From Minisyncoccota bacterium (GTDB lineage Bacteria; Patescibacteriota; Minisyncoccia; Phycocordibacterales; SBAW01): a stretch of 64,000 nucleotides of DNA. The first letter of the stretch is position 1. Every line of letters starts with the position of its first letter. A program made the position numbers and the translations under genes. This document shows, piece by piece, positions 5,967 to 10,602 of this stretch. The stretch is from positions 49,082-113,081 of the forward strand of contig DASZWN010000001.1 of assembly GCA_035546575.1 (NCBI GenBank), read 5' to 3'. Under the pieces are notes generated by a model. It worked only from the letters and a program-made list of their open reading frames with translations. It did not search any database and had not been told where the DNA came from.

Positions 5967-5986
5967 CCTGCCTGTCGGCAGACAGG
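5967..5986. repeat. Palindromic repeat copy (CCTGCCTGTCGGCAGACAGG) abutting the tRNA-Arg 5' end
   Basis: A member of the GC-rich palindrome family. It overlaps the first nucleotide of tRNA-Arg(GCG). Confidence 0.75.
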
Positions 5987-6057
5987 CTCTCGTCGTTCAA
6001 TGGATAGGACGGCAGCTTGCGGAGCTGCTGATGTAGGTTCGATTCCTACCGAGAGCA
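5986..6057 (+). tRNA. tRNA-Arg (anticodon GCG)
   Basis: GCTCTCGTCGTTCAATGGATAGGACGGCAGCTTGCGGAGCTGCTGATGTAGGTTCGATTCCTACCGAGAGCA has a perfect acceptor stem, T-arm and D-arm. The anticodon stem is GCAGC/GCTGC with loop TTGCGGA, giving anticodon GCG and G37. The D-arm is identical to that of tRNA-Arg(CCG), including the Arg identity base A20. Confidence 0.7.
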
Positions 6058-6064
6058 CCCGTTT

Positions 6065-9000
6065 TTATATCTCCTGATAATTCGGTATAAGTTGCACGGT
6101 TATGCTTCTGGTGCTGGGCGGATCCTGGTTATTAGTACACGTCAGCGTGTATTTGGTCGGCTGCGTGATAGGCTGCGTCGTGGCTGTGCCGGTAAATGGA
6201 TTGCTGGAGCCGTTCCATAAGCTTGTAATATCGCCGCCTGCAGTTCCGCTTGCGGGAGTCGGCGAAATACTACAGCTTATGCCGTTTGCCATGCCCGGTA
6301 TGTTCCAAGACAGCGTCGATGAGCCACCCAGGCGCACGCGGGTCGCGGTGAAGGAGTTGGCGCTGAGCGTCGGTACCGATGGAGTTGACGGGACGCATGC
6401 GGAGCCATTGAACGCGTAGCCGCTCGGGACGCTGCAGGTATTGTCCGGATTGCCTGTGCATCCCGAAGGTACCGTGGTCTGAAAGCCTGGAAGATTGGTG
6501 CACATATCCGGAACACATCCGCCGTTGCCATCGGACGCCTGGCCAACTGCACACACCTTCACTTGCACGGTAGCGTAGCCGTTATAGTTGATGTAGTTAA
6601 AAGTTTTTGCCTGTGCGGAAAATACAAACGCCTTTCCCGCGTCTGCTGATGCCGGCGTAAAAGTATACGTTTTTGTCGCATCGGGTTTCTGCCAACAATT
6701 TGGATCAGAAGCCGCTGGCGGATTCGGAGGAGCAACAAGATTACAGTTAACAGTATTACCGTCCTGTGAATCGCATCCCGAGTCGCAATTGATAGCGGTA
6801 GCCTCAAGAGGGTCGCCGGTTGAGGTATATTTGATTACGATAATGCCCTGGGCCCCGACTCCTTCATTGCTCTGGCTGCCTCCGCCGGAGCCGCCACCGC
6901 CGCCATACAAACCACCGTTACCGCCCGGAGCGGCAATCGAGGAACGACACCCGCCGCCTCCGCCGGAGCCGGCCGTCGGCGTCGCGCCCGTGTATGCAGA
7001 ACCGTTCCACACGTTGGTAGCAATCCACTCGGCACCATTACCACCAGCCGCAGGCGGGTTGCCGCAACCGCTGCCCGCGCCGCCAAGCCCCGCATCCCCT
7101 GCGCCGCCGCTGTCTCCCGCTTGACCATTCCCGTTGGGACCTCCTGCGCCGCCGCCGTTGCCGGAATTGTTATTATCGCCGTAAGCGCCGGCGCCGCCCG
7201 CATACTTAACAGTGCCGACGCCGCCGCTGACAGCGCCTCCAGCTCCACCATTGTTGCCATTGCCGCTGTTGCCGCCCTTAGCACATACCGAAACCGTATC
7301 GACGCAGGTATTTGAGGAACCGGCAGTCCTATTAAAGAAAGTGTCGCCGCCCGGACTGGCCGGATTCCCTTGAGCCGCGCCTTGTCCTACCCTGTACGCC
7401 ACGGATGCGCCGTGGGTGAGAGAAACATTAGTCTTTTTTGAATATGCGCCGCCTCCGCCTCCGCCGCCCCGACCTCCTGTAAAAGCCGAGGTGCCGCCGC
7501 CGCCTATAACTTCGATGCTGTTATTGGCGCTGTTCCAATCGCTTGGCACGGTCCATACGCCAGAACCTGCGGCAGTAATAAAGACGGTTTTTTGAGTTTG
7601 ATTGGTACTGCCAGCATATGTGGCGGCTACAGTTACTTGCTGTCCCACCCCAACTGAAACTAATTTTCCGTTCTTGTTGCCGCTGCTGTCTGCCGCTTGA
7701 AAACCGGCGTTATTGGCTTGGATAGTAGCGGTCGGGGGCGGATACAAAACGCAGGTGTTACCCGAACGATAACTACCCGAAGTAACCGTGTTGCAGGGCA
7801 CACAAACCCCGCCCTGTACGATAGCGGTAGGATCCGAGCATGTCTGTACGTCAACTTGTATTTGCGGCTGTCGATAGGAAGGATTCTGCATACCGTATAT
7901 CGTGTAGCTGCCTCCAGTAGGAGCAGTGCCGGAGGATGCAGCTGGCGGAGAACCGCCGTTTGCGGGAATCCCTTCTTGAGGCTGATAGCCGCCGCATTGG
8001 AGCGTAACGCTCTGCGAATTGCTGAACGTCTGCGTAGAACTGTCGATAAGGTTCGCCGTTTCAGTGCCCTTGTACCACGCTCGATCCGCTGTCTGGACAT
8101 TGAGATCGCCATCGGTAACAAGCGTCCAGCTAAGACAGCTAATAATGTAAGCGCCTTGGCATGCGGCGCCAAACCAAACATAATTCTGGTTCGGCAAACA
8201 TTGATAAGAGAACTGGACCGGGGTGTATTTAGGGACCTTAAGCGTGGCGGCGGGCGTATTTTGTGTCGGCGCAGTAGCGTACGCCCAATGCGTTGTTGAA
8301 GTGTTACAAGGATTTGTTTTTTTGACATTCGTGAGATCGAGACCGACATTAACCGGAGCAATGCCTGCAGTCTGCGCTACTGCTTGCAGGACCGCAACAC
8401 GCGTACCCGCAACGGTAGTAGAAAAATTAGGACCCATGCATACGCCCTGCGCCGTGTCGCTCGGGAGCGATATGCCGGCCGTACCGCCATTAGTGCCGCA
8501 TAGTTGGGGCGAAGGGCTATTGGTGATCCAGGCATTAAGAATGCTTGTGGGAGTGGCAAATTGGTTTGTGTAGCCCCATCCGCCATCTTGGTGGTAAATA
8601 TAGCCATTATAGGGCAATGGGTAAGCAGCAAAAGGAGCGATCGCGTAGGGCGAGACTGTCTCAATCGCCGGAGTCCCGTTGTTAATGGTTATTGTGGCGC
8701 TCGCCGGCGTACCGACGGAATAGGCCGAGGATGCGGCTATAGTCGCCTTGAGCGTAGTGCTGCCGCCCGATGTTTTTTGAAGCGCAGTAATAGGAACCAC
8801 TACCGACATAGTGTTCGCCGGAATAGTAACCGTTGCGGGAGCGGCGGAGTAGTCTGTCCCCACCACCGCAGTACTCCCGCTTCCGCCGTATACAAGGTCC
8901 ACCGACACCGCAGGCCAGGTTGCTGGCCCGTTGCGGGTAACAGTAAATGCTCCCGGAGTACCGATGCAGGAATTACCGCTGTTGGTCGGCGCGGTGATGG

Positions 9001-9901
9001 AAACGGTGAGAGGTGCGCTGTAATTAATTACAATAAGCCCGGGAGCGCCGGCTCCTCCGCGGCGGAGGGTGCCGGACGATGGAGCAAAAGCTCCGCCGCC
9101 GCCCGCGCCGTATGTGCCTCCCGCTCCTGCGTCTGCTGCGTATCCAGAACCGCCGCCTCCGCCGCCGGACCCGTACGCGGGTGAGGAAGAAAATTCAGTT
9201 CCTGCGTTTCCTGGGAAGGCGGCCCTGATGCCGCTTGTGATCCCGCCGGTGCCGCCTGCAGTGCCATCCCCTTGCCCGCCATTGGTGCTATTACCTGCCA
9301 CACCGGCGGCGCTTGGGCCGCCGGCACCGCCCCCTCCGCCGCCGGAAATAACCATGCCTGCCCCGCCTGCGCCACCGCTATTTTTTATTGAGCCGGTGCC
9401 TGACGCGACTCCTCCTGTAGCCGATCCTCCTGCTCCCGCGGCGCCCCCCCCGCCGCCTGTACCTGCGCCCCCCGCCCCTCCGCCTTTCGCACAGACGGAG
9501 GCAGCCGCGCAGGCGGCGCCGTTAAACCACGCATCTCCTCCTGCGGTTGCCCCGGAAGTTCCGCCGCCCGTGCCTCCGGCGGGAAGAAAATATGTCGCCG
9601 TCGATCCGCTGAGCGTTATGTTTACCGATTTTGAATATCCACCGCCGCCACCACCACCGCCCCTTCCCGTCGTGTTGCTGGCGACTCCGCCGCCGCCTCC
9701 TCCAGCCGCAATAACCTGCACCGTGTTGCTCGCATTGTTCCAGTCAGAAGGCACGGGCCAGGTTTGGTTTGACGCGCTTGTCGTAGTGAGATAGATCGGC
9801 CCCACTGGAAACGTAGGGGCGGCCATGACAAAGGGTGCGGGGCCTGCAAAAAATACCAAAAGCGCGAAATAGAAAAGAAACTTTTTAACGTAACTGTTCA
9901 T
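6065..9901 (-). CDS. Giant glycine-rich secreted surface protein (1278 aa) with an internal duplication, Calx-beta-like and Cys-rich Ig-like modules
   Basis: There is a signal peptide (MNSYVKKFLFYFALLVFFAGPAPFVMA) followed by two homologous modules. Module 1 begins near aa 48 (WPVPSDWNNASNTVQVIAAGGGGGG...GGGGGGGGYSKSVNITLSGSTATY) and module 2 near aa 760 (WTVPSDWNSANNSIEVIGGGG...GGGGGGGAYSKKTNVSLTHGASVAY). A VVGTDYSAAPATVTIPANTMSVVVPITAL segment is Calx-beta-like. The C-terminal region is Cys-rich. Confidence 0.8.
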   Translation of the reverse strand: MNSYVKKFLFYFALLVFFAGPAPFVMAAPTFPVGPIYLTTTSASNQTWPVPSDWNNASNTVQVIAAGGGGGGVASNTTGRGGGGGGGGYSKSVNITLSGSTATYFLPAGGTGGGTSGATAGGDAWFNGAACAAASVCAKGGGAGGAGTGGGGGAAGAGGSATGGVASGTGSIKNSGGAGGAGMVISGGGGGGAGGPSAAGVAGNSTNGGQGDGTAGGTGGITSGIRAAFPGNAGTEFSSSPAYGSGGGGGGSGYAADAGAGGTYGAGGGGAFAPSSGTLRRGGAGAPGLIVINYSAPLTVSITAPTNSGNSCIGTPGAFTVTRNGPATWPAVSVDLVYGGSGSTAVVGTDYSAAPATVTIPANTMSVVVPITALQKTSGGSTTLKATIAASSAYSVGTPASATITINNGTPAIETVSPYAIAPFAAYPLPYNGYIYHQDGGWGYTNQFATPTSILNAWITNSPSPQLCGTNGGTAGISLPSDTAQGVCMGPNFSTTVAGTRVAVLQAVAQTAGIAPVNVGLDLTNVKKTNPCNTSTTHWAYATAPTQNTPAATLKVPKYTPVQFSYQCLPNQNYVWFGAACQGAYIISCLSWTLVTDGDLNVQTADRAWYKGTETANLIDSSTQTFSNSQSVTLQCGGYQPQEGIPANGGSPPAASSGTAPTGGSYTIYGMQNPSYRQPQIQVDVQTCSDPTAIVQGGVCVPCNTVTSGSYRSGNTCVLYPPPTATIQANNAGFQAADSSGNKNGKLVSVGVGQQVTVAATYAGSTNQTQKTVFITAAGSGVWTVPSDWNSANNSIEVIGGGGTSAFTGGRGGGGGGGAYSKKTNVSLTHGASVAYRVGQGAAQGNPASPGGDTFFNRTAGSSNTCVDTVSVCAKGGNSGNGNNGGAGGAVSGGVGTVKYAGGAGAYGDNNNSGNGGGAGGPNGNGQAGDSGGAGDAGLGGAGSGCGNPPAAGGNGAEWIATNVWNGSAYTGATPTAGSGGGGGCRSSIAAPGGNGGLYGGGGGSGGGSQSNEGVGAQGIIVIKYTSTGDPLEATAINCDSGCDSQDGNTVNCNLVAPPNPPAASDPNCWQKPDATKTYTFTPASADAGKAFVFSAQAKTFNYINYNGYATVQVKVCAVGQASDGNGGCVPDMCTNLPGFQTTVPSGCTGNPDNTCSVPSGYAFNGSACVPSTPSVPTLSANSFTATRVRLGGSSTLSWNIPGMANGISCSISPTPASGTAGGDITSLWNGSSNPFTGTATTQPITQPTKYTLTCTNNQDPPSTRSITVQLIPNYQEI

Positions 9902-9939: not shown

Positions 9940-10500
9940 GTGCCCCCGCCTATTGTTTCCACACGGAGACAGTATACTTGTGCGGTGATCCTTACTCTTG
10001 CAGCACTCTCGGGTTTTCTGCTGATGCTGGCATTGCCGCCTTTTTCCGCTCCCCTTTTCTCCCTTATGGCGTTCGCGCCGATGGTCTTTGTCGCCGCGCG
10101 AAGGGCCCCCATCCCCGCAAAACACCTCTTCGTCGCGGGTTTTATTGCCGGCGCCCTGCCCGGCGGATCGCTCTCGTACTATATGTTAAGCGACTTCCCC
10201 TGGCCGGGGGACGCGCCGCTCGTGCTGGCATTCATCCACTGGAGCCCGGTGCTGTAGACGCTCCTTTTTTGGAGGAGTGGGCGGCACCACGCTCGTTTTG
10301 TACAATAAATTTCGTTTCAATTCTCCGGCCCTGAATGCGGCGCTCTTTGCGGGGATGTACCTGGTGTGCGAGCAGCTCGTACAACTGCTGTCGGGTCACT
10401 ATTGCCGTCGCAAAAGTCTGTCTGGGCACCGCCTCGCGGCCCTGCAAGTGCAGGGCATCGCTCCGGCGTTCGATTCCTGTCGTGCGTCACTCAGGTGACA
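9940..10500 (+). pseudogene. Possible decayed remnant of apolipoprotein N-acyltransferase (lnt-like N-terminus, frameshifted and truncated)
   Basis: ORF 9940..10257 reads AALSGFLLMLALPPFSAPLFSLMAFAPMVFVAARRAPIPAKHLFVAGFIAGAL, which resembles the first Lnt transmembrane segments. Similarity continues in a shifted frame (…ALFAGMYLV…). Only about 190 codon-equivalents remain before tRNA-Arg(CCG). Confidence 0.3.
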
Positions 10501-10530
10501 CACTCCAAGAGACAAAAACTTCGTTTTTTG

Positions 10531-10602
10531 TCCTCTTGGCAGGAATCGAACCTGCATCGCCTCCTTCGGAGGGAGGCATCCTATCCATTGAACGACAAGA
10601 GG
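10531..10602 (-). tRNA. tRNA-Arg (anticodon CCG)
   Basis: The reverse complement is CCTCTTGTCGTTCAATGGATAGGATGCCTCCCTCCGAAGGAGGCGATGCAGGTTCGATTCCTGCCAAGAGGA. The anticodon stem is CCTCC/GGAGG with loop CTCCGAA, and the first acceptor pair is C1-G72. Confidence 0.75.

What the first reader, a model, noticed from the sequence alone, without database searches (positions are those of the whole stretch)
6065..9901. Giant Gly-rich secreted protein with duplicated WxVPSDWN-poly-Gly modules and a Calx-beta-like domain
Two homologous modules of about 250 aa each start with W(P/T)VPSDWN(N/S)A(S/N)N(T/S)(V/I)(Q/E)VI followed by long GGGGGG tracts and the same SK(S/K)xN(I/V)(T/S)L motif. They begin near residues 48 and 760. 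Between and after them lie beta-rich Ig/Calx-beta-like segments (VVGTDYSAAPATVTIPANTMSVVVPITAL) and a Cys-rich C-terminal region. Antisense ORFs on the + strand encode poly-Pro because of the GGN codons. This architecture, poly-Gly blocks alternating with adhesin-like beta domains, is unusual. It may be a flexible surface fibre used for host-cell contact.
Basis: seen in the sequence. Interest (0 to 1): 0.55.

Follow-up and report, generated by a model that had tools for sequence, protein, structure and literature searches.

The report
Cell-surface protein with phage-fibre glycine domains
A 1,278-residue secreted protein of a tiny Candidatus Paceibacterota (CPR) bacterium carries two copies of the compact glycine-lattice binding domain known from phage tail-fibre tips and the ALK receptor, so its glycine runs most likely form a rigid recognition module and not a floppy fibre; the domain family is already catalogued, but this cellular setting and a conserved tail motif are mildly interesting.

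Summary
The ORF (6065-9901, minus strand, 1278 aa) and its duplicated WxVPSDWN/poly-Gly modules are real. The second module starts at aa 771 (Trp 783), not 760. An independent MAG carries a syntenic orthologue under purifying selection (dN/dS 0.20), so the Gly tracts are not artefacts.

The gene has a signal peptide, housekeeping neighbours and no phage genes. It is most likely a surface adhesin of an episymbiotic bacterium (inferred).

It has no known C-terminal sorting signal. It does end in an Ig-like domain with a strictly terminal (L/I/V)(L/I/V)Px(F/Y)QEI motif, shared by many other secreted proteins; the few that carry a source name are patescibacterial. This is a new member of a known kind, of moderate interest.

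The parts
6065..9901 (-). Whole gene, 1278 aa plus stop. It equals NCBI hypothetical protein VHD31_00335 of a Candidatus Paceibacterota MAG, which is annotated from Met26.
9821..9901 (-). Predicted signal peptide, aa 1-27 (MNSYVKKFLFYFALLVFFAGPAPFVMA|AP). It lies upstream of the NCBI start and is preceded by GGGGAG 13 nt before the ATG.
   Evidence: Read directly from the sequence. The same hydrophobic segment and GPAPFVMAAPTF are conserved in frame upstream of the annotated start in the orthologue. tblastn in the orthologue genome matches query residues 5-1278. No signal-peptide predictor was available.
9011..9790 (-). Gly-rich module 1, aa 38-297: TNF-like beta-sandwich with an inserted polyglycine (PPII-type) lattice (Pfam Gly_rich_2).
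8666..9010 (-). Calx-beta-like beta-sandwich, aa 298-412, lacking the acidic Ca2+-binding residues (2 Asp, 0 Glu).
7880..8665 (-). Middle region, aa 413-674, Cys-containing, fold unresolved. It is shared with a Gly-module-less paralogue in related genomes.
   Evidence: pLDDT about 30 for aa 400-542. No Pfam or PDB hit. 29% identity, E 9e-30, to the 603-aa neighbour gene of the orthologous locus.
7592..7879 (-). Small Cys-containing beta unit plus an Ig-like domain, aa 675-770, leading into module 2.
6806..7591 (-). Gly-rich module 2, aa 771-1032. Same fold as module 1.
6392..6805 (-). Beta-sandwich domain and Cys-rich linker, aa 1033-1170 (10 Cys).
6068..6391 (-). C-terminal Ig-like domain (CTD), aa 1171-1278. 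In relatives that carry the terminal motif it sits at the extreme C-terminus.
   Evidence: No Pfam, NCBIfam or PDB sequence match.
6068..6091 (-). Extreme C-terminal tail LIPNYQEI-COOH. The family consensus is V-(G/N/Q)-(L/I)-(V/I/L)-P-x-(F/Y)-Q-E-I.
   Evidence: In the tally of the 261 proteins held, 67 of the 168 with the domain (70 of all 261) end in this motif. None of 782 internal copies of the domain reaches the end of the profile. In model 2 the tail lies after the last long strand, and its block pLDDT is 69.

Best explanation
The gene encodes a Sec-exported, cell-surface multidomain protein of a Candidatus Paceibacterota (Patescibacteria/CPR) bacterium.

Each of its two Gly-rich modules is one compact domain. 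A TNF-like beta-sandwich is formed by the WxVPSDWN..V.VIGGGG, YSKxxNxxL and GxIVIxY strands. Long loops made of glycine-rich motifs project from it and pack as extended polyglycine/PPII-type helices into a hydrogen-bonded lattice. This is the fold of the receptor-binding tip of the cyanophage Pam3 tail fibre gp24, of mycobacteriophage Bxb1 gp33/gp29, and, more distantly, of the ligand-binding glycine-rich domain of ALK/LTK.

Conserved glycine motifs form the scaffold, and the variable segments between them form the exposed surface. Calx-beta-like and Ig-like domains act as spacers that hold the two binding modules away from the cell. By analogy with the phage proteins, the modules bind a surface ligand (glycan, LPS-like polymer or protein) on another cell, most likely the host or partner of this presumably episymbiotic bacterium.

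Shown here: homology, predicted fold, purifying selection, chromosomal non-phage context.
Inferred: export, surface location, the ligand-binding role and the identity of the target.
For: Sequence homology:
- Pfam Gly_rich_2 covers both modules end to end.
- A profile of 47 family members hits PDB 7YFW/7YPX (Pam3 gp24) at E 3e-8, including the WxxP...GGGG start and the GxQGIIIVQY end.

Predicted fold:
- AlphaFold2 model of aa 28-420: pLDDT 87.6, pTM 0.83. The 150 Gly-rich residues are confident but have almost no DSSP helix or strand.

Literature on the fold:
- A gp24 homologue of a Klebsiella phage binds LPS, and host-range mutations map to its glycine-rich domain (PMC12671077).
- These domains are classed as PPII helical bundles (PMC13243192).

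The same module in phages:
- The same WTVPSDWN module occurs in at least 100 ORFs of IMG/VR viral contigs.
- In both contigs examined it lies on a contig that also carries terminase, portal/adaptor, protease and major head genes.

Selection and variation:
- Substitutions between orthologues fall in family-variable positions (mean conservation 0.30 vs 0.46, Mann-Whitney p 3e-4).
- dN/dS is 0.10-0.24 in the modules.

Export and cellular context:
- An N-terminal hydrophobic signal is conserved in the orthologue.
- Neighbours are nfi, aldo-keto reductase, tRNAs, S20, RuvA and a Mur ligase. The order is syntenic in two other genomes.
Against: - No experiment exists on any cellular member of the family.
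- The fold rests on predicted models. I could not read the coordinates, so PPII geometry was not measured directly.
- The whole-protein Pfam score (22.9) and the module 2 score (22.1) are just below the gathering cutoff of 24.3.
- Phage homologues work as trimers held by an N-terminal helical domain and need a chaperone. Neither feature is present here, so the oligomeric state and avidity are unknown.
- The episymbiotic lifestyle of this particular organism is assumed from its phylum.
- The 260-aa middle region is unresolved and could carry a different activity.
Confidence: 0.55

Rival explanations
1. Structural or self-associating envelope protein. The protein is exported, but it serves as an S-layer-like, matrix or cell-cell cohesion component, or binds environmental polysaccharide. 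It would not recognise a specific host cell.
For: Relatives combine the module with LamG, DUF2341, fn3 and SPRY domains, typical of generic surface/carbohydrate-binding proteins. The spacers are Ig-like and Calx-beta-like. Module 2 is highly conserved between orthologues (94.7% id, dN/dS 0.096), which is not what an arms-race receptor binder would show.
Against: Every solved homologue of the module is a receptor- or ligand-binding domain. Module 1 and the CTD vary faster.
Confidence: 0.2
2. Phage gene. The ORF is a tail fibre or receptor-binding protein of a prophage or a degraded phage remnant.
For: The closest solved structures are all phage tail proteins. The module is common in viral contigs. 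The gene is flanked by two tRNA-Arg genes and has raised GC (58-59% against roughly 47-56% in the rest of the window).
Against: No phage genes were seen among the gene's neighbours; those identified are housekeeping genes, and the locus is syntenic in three genomes. There is a signal peptide where a baseplate-docking helix would be. The 1278-aa, two-module architecture with a CTD is absent from all 121 viral ORFs examined. The raised GC is explained by GGN/GCN codons.
Confidence: 0.05
3. Targeting domain of a toxin/effector-type protein. The Gly modules direct an unrecognised effector activity, perhaps in the unresolved middle region, to a target cell, as in polymorphic toxins.
For: Bradyrhizobium RHS repeat toxins carry one or two of these modules at their N-terminus (P0023, P0026, P0031, P0033). 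The middle region has no assigned fold.
Against: No RHS, toxin or enzymatic domain is detected in this protein. The middle region also occurs in a 603-aa paralogue without Gly modules.
Confidence: 0.07
4. First reader's model. The glycine tracts are flexible, disordered linkers that alternate with folded beta domains to give an elastic fibre.
For: Very high Gly content (up to 48% per 50 aa). DSSP assigns almost no regular secondary structure to aa 139-288.
Confidence: 0.03
5. Assembly or annotation artefact of a low-complexity region.
For: MAG origin; low-complexity coding sequence.
Against: An independent MAG has the same gene in the same place, with synonymous divergence (dS 0.37) and an intact frame. 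Gly codons are mixed and there are no long DNA repeats. More than 200 homologues exist.
Confidence: 0.01

Closest known systems
Cyanophage Pam3 tail fibre gp24, TNF-like + glycine-rich domains (PDB 7YFW/7YPX)
   Different: gp24 is a 280-aa virion protein with an N-terminal helical baseplate-docking domain. It is trimeric and needs chaperone gp25. Here the module occurs twice inside a 1278-aa signal-peptide protein, with Ig-like and Calx-like spacers. There is no helical domain and no chaperone gene nearby.
Mycobacteriophage Bxb1 gp33 'wing brush' and gp29 tail spike subdomain (PDB 9D93)
   Different: They are virion components, and their ligand is not established in what I read. The protein here is encoded in a cellular context.
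ALK/LTK extracellular TNF-like + glycine-rich domain (PDB 7LS0, 7NX3, 7LRZ, 7LIR)
   Different: It is a metazoan receptor tyrosine kinase ectodomain that binds a cytokine. It is much more distant, and no sequence-level hit was found.
Salmonella phage S16 gp38 adhesin (PDB 6F45), polyglycine-II sandwich
   Same: The principle is the same: conserved glycine-rich motifs form a PGII scaffold that displays hypervariable receptor-binding loops (PMC9608196, bioRxiv 10.1101/2023.11.25.568672).
Pfam PF21722 Gly_rich_2 ('Glycine-rich domain')
   Same: Both modules match the model end to end. Many relatives carry precomputed PF21722 hits.
   Different: The Pfam entry, as returned by the tool, carries no functional annotation. 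The scores here straddle the gathering cutoff.
Calx-beta domain (PF03160; NCX1 CBD1, CALX CBD1, integrin beta4)
   Different: There is no direct HMM hit. The acidic Ca2+-coordinating residues are missing (2 Asp and 0 Glu in 115 aa).
C-terminal sorting domains (LPXTG, PEP-CTERM and relatives; T9SS CTD)
   Same: Like the T9SS CTD, an Ig-like domain always sits last in otherwise unrelated secreted proteins. Like sorting signals, a short invariant motif has a fixed position relative to the C-terminus.
   Different: No transmembrane helix or basic tail follows the motif. There is no NCBIfam or Pfam match. No processing enzyme has been identified. T9SS belongs to Bacteroidota (from memory; no T9SS genes were searched for here). 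Function is untested.

Membership tests
Pfam PF21722 Gly_rich_2 | HMM score at or above the gathering cutoff (24.3 bits) with full-length coverage | tested here: met
   Module 1 scanned alone: 28.3 bits, profile 2-225 of 226. Module 2: 22.1 bits, same coverage. Whole protein: 22.9 bits. Module 2 is tied to module 1 by BLASTP E 9e-10.
Pam3 gp24-type TNF-like + glycine-rich receptor-binding domain | Sequence homology to the solved protein | tested here: met
   A profile of 47 family members hits 7yfw_a/7ypx_A at E 3e-8. A second stretch reaches the C-terminal strand.
Pam3 gp24-type TNF-like + glycine-rich receptor-binding domain | Same three-dimensional fold (TNF-like sandwich plus glycine lattice) | tested here: met
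Pam3 gp24-type TNF-like + glycine-rich receptor-binding domain | Glycine-rich motifs in extended PPII/polyglycine-II conformation, packed at about 5 A spacing | not testable with these tools
   Model coordinates are not exposed. The only evidence is indirect: confident residues without DSSP helix or strand and the superposition on 7YPX.
Phage tail fibre (virion protein) | N-terminal domain for docking to the baseplate, an adjacent fibre chaperone, and a phage structural gene neighbourhood | tested here: not met
   The N-terminus is a signal peptide. Neighbours are tRNAs, nfi, AKR, S20, RuvA and a Mur ligase, in a syntenic order.
Phage tail fibre (virion protein) | Homotrimeric assembly | not tested
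   No multimer prediction was available.
Calx-beta (PF03160) | Match to the family HMM | tested here: not met
   No PF03160 hit at E <= 5 for aa 297-420. There is only a transitive link through P0094 repeats (Pfam 22.7-32.8 bits; phmmer iE 2.6e-12 to 1e-3).
Calx-beta (PF03160) | Calx-beta sandwich fold | tested here: met
Calx-beta (PF03160) | Cluster of acidic residues that binds Ca2+ | tested here: not met
   aa 298-412 contain 2 Asp and no Glu.
Known C-terminal sorting signals (LPXTG, PEP-CTERM, GlyGly-CTERM and relatives) | Short motif followed by a hydrophobic helix and a basic tail at the C-terminus | tested here: not met
   The protein ends ...TVQLIPNYQEI with no hydrophobic stretch. NCBIfam gives no family for the protein or the CTD.
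T9SS C-terminal domain | Match to Por_Secre_tail-type models, and a T9SS in the organism | tested here: not met
   No NCBIfam or Pfam match for the CTD. The presence of T9SS genes was not examined.
ALK/LTK glycine-rich domain | TNF-like + polyglycine lattice fold in a receptor kinase ectodomain | tested here: inconclusive

The most novel reading that the evidence does not exclude
Two linked readings remain open.

(1) Patescibacteria use the same receptor-recognition cassette as phage tail-fibre tips to find and hold their host cells. The cassette is shuffled between cellular surface proteins and phages. Viral and cellular modules are about equally similar to this protein, at 43-59% identity over the N-terminal ~100 aa. 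A Gly-module-less paralogue sits at the same locus in relatives.

(2) The C-terminal Ig-like domain with its strictly terminal (L/I/V)(L/I/V)-P-x-(F/Y)-Q-E-I-COOH tail is a previously uncatalogued sorting or anchoring tag for surface proteins, so far named only in Patescibacteria. Among the 261 proteins held, 70 end in it (67 of the 168 that carry the domain), and only 9 of the 50 found by the unbiased search have Gly modules. The tail never appears on the 782 internal copies of the same domain.
Probability: 0.3. Interest if true: 0.7.

Novelty: new member of a known kind. Interest (0 to 1): 0.42.

Why it matters
How ultrasmall CPR/Patescibacteria recognise and attach to their hosts is largely unknown beyond type IV pili (bioRxiv 10.1101/2024.11.25.624915, abstract seen).

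A chromosomally encoded, exported protein carrying two copies of a phage-type receptor-binding domain is a concrete candidate for that role, and its modules could be expressed and tested for binding.

It also corrects a common misreading. Long poly-Gly tracts of this type should be annotated as a folded lattice domain, not as disorder.

The terminal QEI motif, if it proves to be a sorting tag, would give a simple sequence handle for listing the surface proteome of these uncultured bacteria.

Tried and rejected
- phmmer of the single protein against PDB sequences found nothing useful. Only the family profile reached Pam3 gp24.
- NCBIfam gave no family for the protein or the CTD.
- PHROGs gave only weak hits to families of unknown function.
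- tblastn of module 2 against 50,697 GenBank phage records gave no match, most likely because of the low-complexity filter, so this is not evidence of absence.
With the single protein it found only the known orthologue, so the taxonomic range of the family in reference genomes was not obtained.
- The middle region aa 413-674 could not be modelled (pLDDT about 30 for aa 400-542) and has no family hit.
- My first dN/dS run was off by one codon and was discarded. One search is the corrected run.
- Literature searches for PF21722, or for a Patescibacteria C-terminal signal, found nothing relevant.
- No other Gly-rich or QEI-ending ORF exists in the 64-kb window.
Full report
**The object**

The window holds a 3,837-nt ORF on the minus strand (6065..9901) encoding 1,278 aa.
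- It is 100% identical to NCBI 'MAG TPA: hypothetical protein VHD31_00335 [Candidatus Paceibacterota bacterium]', which is annotated from Met26.
WPVPSDWN is at aa 48, WTVPSDWN at aa 783, SKSVNITL at aa 90 and SKKTNVSL at aa 821. There are eight runs of 5-8 Gly.
- Glycine is 19% overall and 26-48% per 50-aa block inside the modules.
- The second module starts at about aa 771, not 760.
- The two modules align at 43% identity with E 9e-10 under composition-adjusted BLASTP.
- The antisense poly-Pro ORFs exist. They are a trivial consequence of GGN/GCN codons.

**Not an artefact**

- At DNA level there are only short, weak tandem repeats.
- All four Gly codons are used.
- A second MAG (GCA_035546615.1, Candidatus Paceibacterota SMAG_U6157) carries the orthologue at the same chromosomal position.
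- Against that orthologue dS is 0.37 and dN/dS 0.20 overall. By region, dN/dS is 0.24 in module 1, 0.10 in module 2, 0.13 in the Calx-like domain and 0.26 in the C-terminal domain.
- Read support itself could not be examined.

**What the Gly-rich modules are**

Sequence evidence:
- Pfam PF21722 (Gly_rich_2) covers both modules end to end. Module 1 scores 28.3 bits and module 2 scores 22.1 bits, against a cutoff of 24.3.
- The homologue search returned 207 proteins. Of the 120 retrieved, many carry two to four copies of the module, combined with LamG, DUF2341, fn3, SPRY or RHS domains.
- A profile of 47 family sequences (A1) hits the cyanophage Pam3 tail fibre gp24 (PDB 7YFW/7YPX) at E 3e-8. 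The alignment includes the opening strand and the closing GxQGIIIVQY strand.

Structure evidence:
- An AlphaFold2 model of aa 28-420 has pLDDT 87.6 and pTM 0.83. About 150 Gly-rich residues are confidently placed yet almost free of DSSP helix or strand.

Published descriptions of the fold:
- In gp24 a TNF-like sandwich extends into six loops carrying twelve glycine-rich motifs. These stack into a four-layer lattice, with variable distal tips proposed to bind the host receptor (PMC9608196).
- These domains are classed with S16 gp38 and ALK/LTK as glycine-rich PPII helical bundles (PMC13243192; bioRxiv 10.1101/2023.11.25.568672).
- A gp24 homologue of a Klebsiella phage binds LPS, and its host-range mutations lie in the glycine-rich domain (PMC12671077).

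The poly-Gly tracts are therefore most likely the packed interior of a rigid binding domain. They are not flexible linkers.

**Scaffold and loops**

- Across the family, conserved glycine motifs alternate with variable runs of 5-9 residues. Examples are GGGGGAYSK, AKGG, YSGGxG, GGGGAAGPxGxG, GSGGGGGG and GGxGGxYGGGGG.
- The 33 substitutions between the two orthologues in module 1 fall preferentially at family-variable positions. Mean conservation is 0.30 at substituted positions against 0.46 elsewhere (Mann-Whitney p 3e-4).
- This fits the scaffold-plus-variable-loop logic of phage adhesins. It is only weak evidence for a binding surface.

**The rest of the protein**

- aa 1-27 look like a Sec signal peptide: KK, then a 13-residue hydrophobic core, then VMA|AP. 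GGGGAG lies upstream of the ATG.
- The same segment is conserved in frame upstream of the annotated start of the orthologue. Both database start sites therefore appear too far downstream.
- This segment resembles tandem repeats of P0094 that Pfam calls Calx-beta. It gives no direct PF03160 hit and has only two Asp and no Glu, so a Ca2+ site is unlikely.
- aa 413-674 are unresolved.
- aa 675-770 and aa 1033-1170 are small beta domains with many Cys. aa 1171-1278 form an Ig-like domain.

**Context**

- The gene lies between tRNA-Arg(gcg) and an Lnt remnant plus tRNA-Arg(ccg). Further neighbours are nfi, an aldo-keto reductase, S20, RuvA and a Mur ligase.
- The order Mur ligase-RuvA-S20-(603/607-aa gene)-Lnt-giant gene recurs in two other genomes.
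- No phage genes were seen among the gene's neighbours.
- The 603-aa neighbour in those genomes is a paralogue without Gly modules. It matches aa 418-768 (E 9e-30) and aa 1154-1278 (E 1e-20) of the query.
- At the same locus another relative (P0007, 1,824 aa) adds LamG domains.
- The Gly modules therefore behave as cassettes inserted into a shared scaffold.

**Link to phages**

- 100 of 121 ORFs carrying the pattern contain the module. They are mostly single-copy, with a median length of 528 aa.
- In both contigs examined, the contig also carries terminase, portal/adaptor, protease and major head genes.
- Viral and cellular modules are about equally similar to the query, at 43-59% identity over the first ~100 residues.

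**C-terminal signal**

- No LPXTG-type or other catalogued sorting signal is present.
- The 13 relatives retrieved whose match runs to the query's C-terminus share the last ~110 aa, and all end in (V/I/L)Px(Y/F/V)(Q/K/R)E(I/N/K).
- A profile of this domain finds 4,580 representative proteins at E <= 1e-3 and 834 at E <= 1e-10.
- Among the 261 sequences held, 168 carry the domain and 67 of those end in P-x-hydrophobic-(Q/K/R/E)-E-x. None of the 782 internal copies reaches the end of the profile.
- Of 50 motif-ending proteins found by the unbiased search, only 9 have Gly modules, and 36 have an N-terminal hydrophobic segment.
- One is named as a Patescibacteria LamG protein.
- In the model the tail follows the last long strand of the Ig-like domain.
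- The domain has no Pfam, NCBIfam or PDB sequence match.
- A fixed distance to the free carboxyl end on otherwise unrelated secreted proteins suggests a recognition tag. Its function is untested, and no partner enzyme was looked for.

**Interpretation**

- The best-supported reading is an exported surface protein that presents two phage-fibre-type binding domains on Ig-like and Calx-like spacers. It would act as an adhesin toward another cell's envelope.
- The fold assignment is strong. The export, surface location and binding role are inferences.
- The rivals, in decreasing order, are a non-specific envelope or matrix protein, a targeting part of an effector, a prophage fibre, a flexible fibre and an artefact.

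**Novelty and score**

- The domain family is catalogued in Pfam, and its fold and role are described for phages and ALK/LTK.
- This protein is a new, uncharacterised cellular member with its own architecture.
- I rate it 'new member of a known kind', with interest 0.42.
- The open, more novel reading is host recognition by a phage-type cassette plus a new C-terminal tag. I give it about 0.3 probability.

Noticed in passing
window 6068-6391 (-), especially 6068-6091; also P0020, P0134, P0146, P0172 and others: The C-terminal Ig-like domain ends in a strictly terminal V-(G/N/Q)-(L/I)-(V/I/L)-P-x-(F/Y)-Q-E-I-COOH. It occurs on many otherwise unrelated secreted proteins; the few with source names are patescibacterial. 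782 internal copies of the domain never carry the tail. No Pfam, NCBIfam or PDB sequence match. It may be a sorting or anchoring tag.
   Followed up: partly
window 9940-10257 (+): This 105-aa ORF is the N-terminal fragment (78% identity over 88 aa) of the apolipoprotein N-acyltransferase Lnt, which is intact (520 aa) in the orthologous locus L001. The rest of Lnt and a 603-aa gene are missing here, and tRNA-Arg(ccg) at 10530-10602 (-) lies in the gap. This looks like a lineage-specific deletion or pseudogene.
   Followed up: partly
L001 2288-4099 (+) and L002 6545-8368 (+) (= P0172): In related genomes, a 603/607-aa secreted paralogue of the giant protein without Gly modules or a Calx-like domain sits two genes away and ends IPEYQEI / IPAYQEI. 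This shows that the Gly-rich modules are inserted cassettes.
   Followed up: yes
window 9826-9901 (-); L001 5845-6000 (+): Database start codons appear wrong. The NCBI model starts at Met26, and the orthologue model starts at 'MPSDWNN' inside the first strand of module 1. Both cut off a conserved signal peptide.
   Followed up: yes
window 5986-6059 (+) and 10530-10602 (-): The gene is bracketed by two tRNA-Arg genes (anticodons gcg and ccg). Its GC is 58-59% against roughly 47-56% in the rest of the window. The GC rise is explained by Gly/Ala codons, and no mobile-element genes were seen.
   Followed up: partly
IMG/VR loci L004-L123, e.g. L010 10870-11949 (+), L060 719-1696 (-): At least 100 ORFs on viral contigs carry the same WTVPSDWN glycine-rich module, usually as a single copy in ORFs of about 500 aa. 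In both contigs examined, the contig also carries terminase, portal, protease and major capsid genes.
   Followed up: partly
P0023, P0026, P0031, P0033 (Bradyrhizobium RHS proteins): RHS repeat toxins of Bradyrhizobium carry one or two Gly_rich_2 modules at their N-terminus. This suggests the module also serves as a targeting domain of polymorphic toxins.
   Followed up: no
P0094 aa 842-1814: A 1,869-aa metagenomic protein has at least seven tandem Calx-beta repeats. They are the closest sequence relatives of the query's Calx-like domain and keep the acidic DDD/ExD ends that the query has lost.
   Followed up: partly
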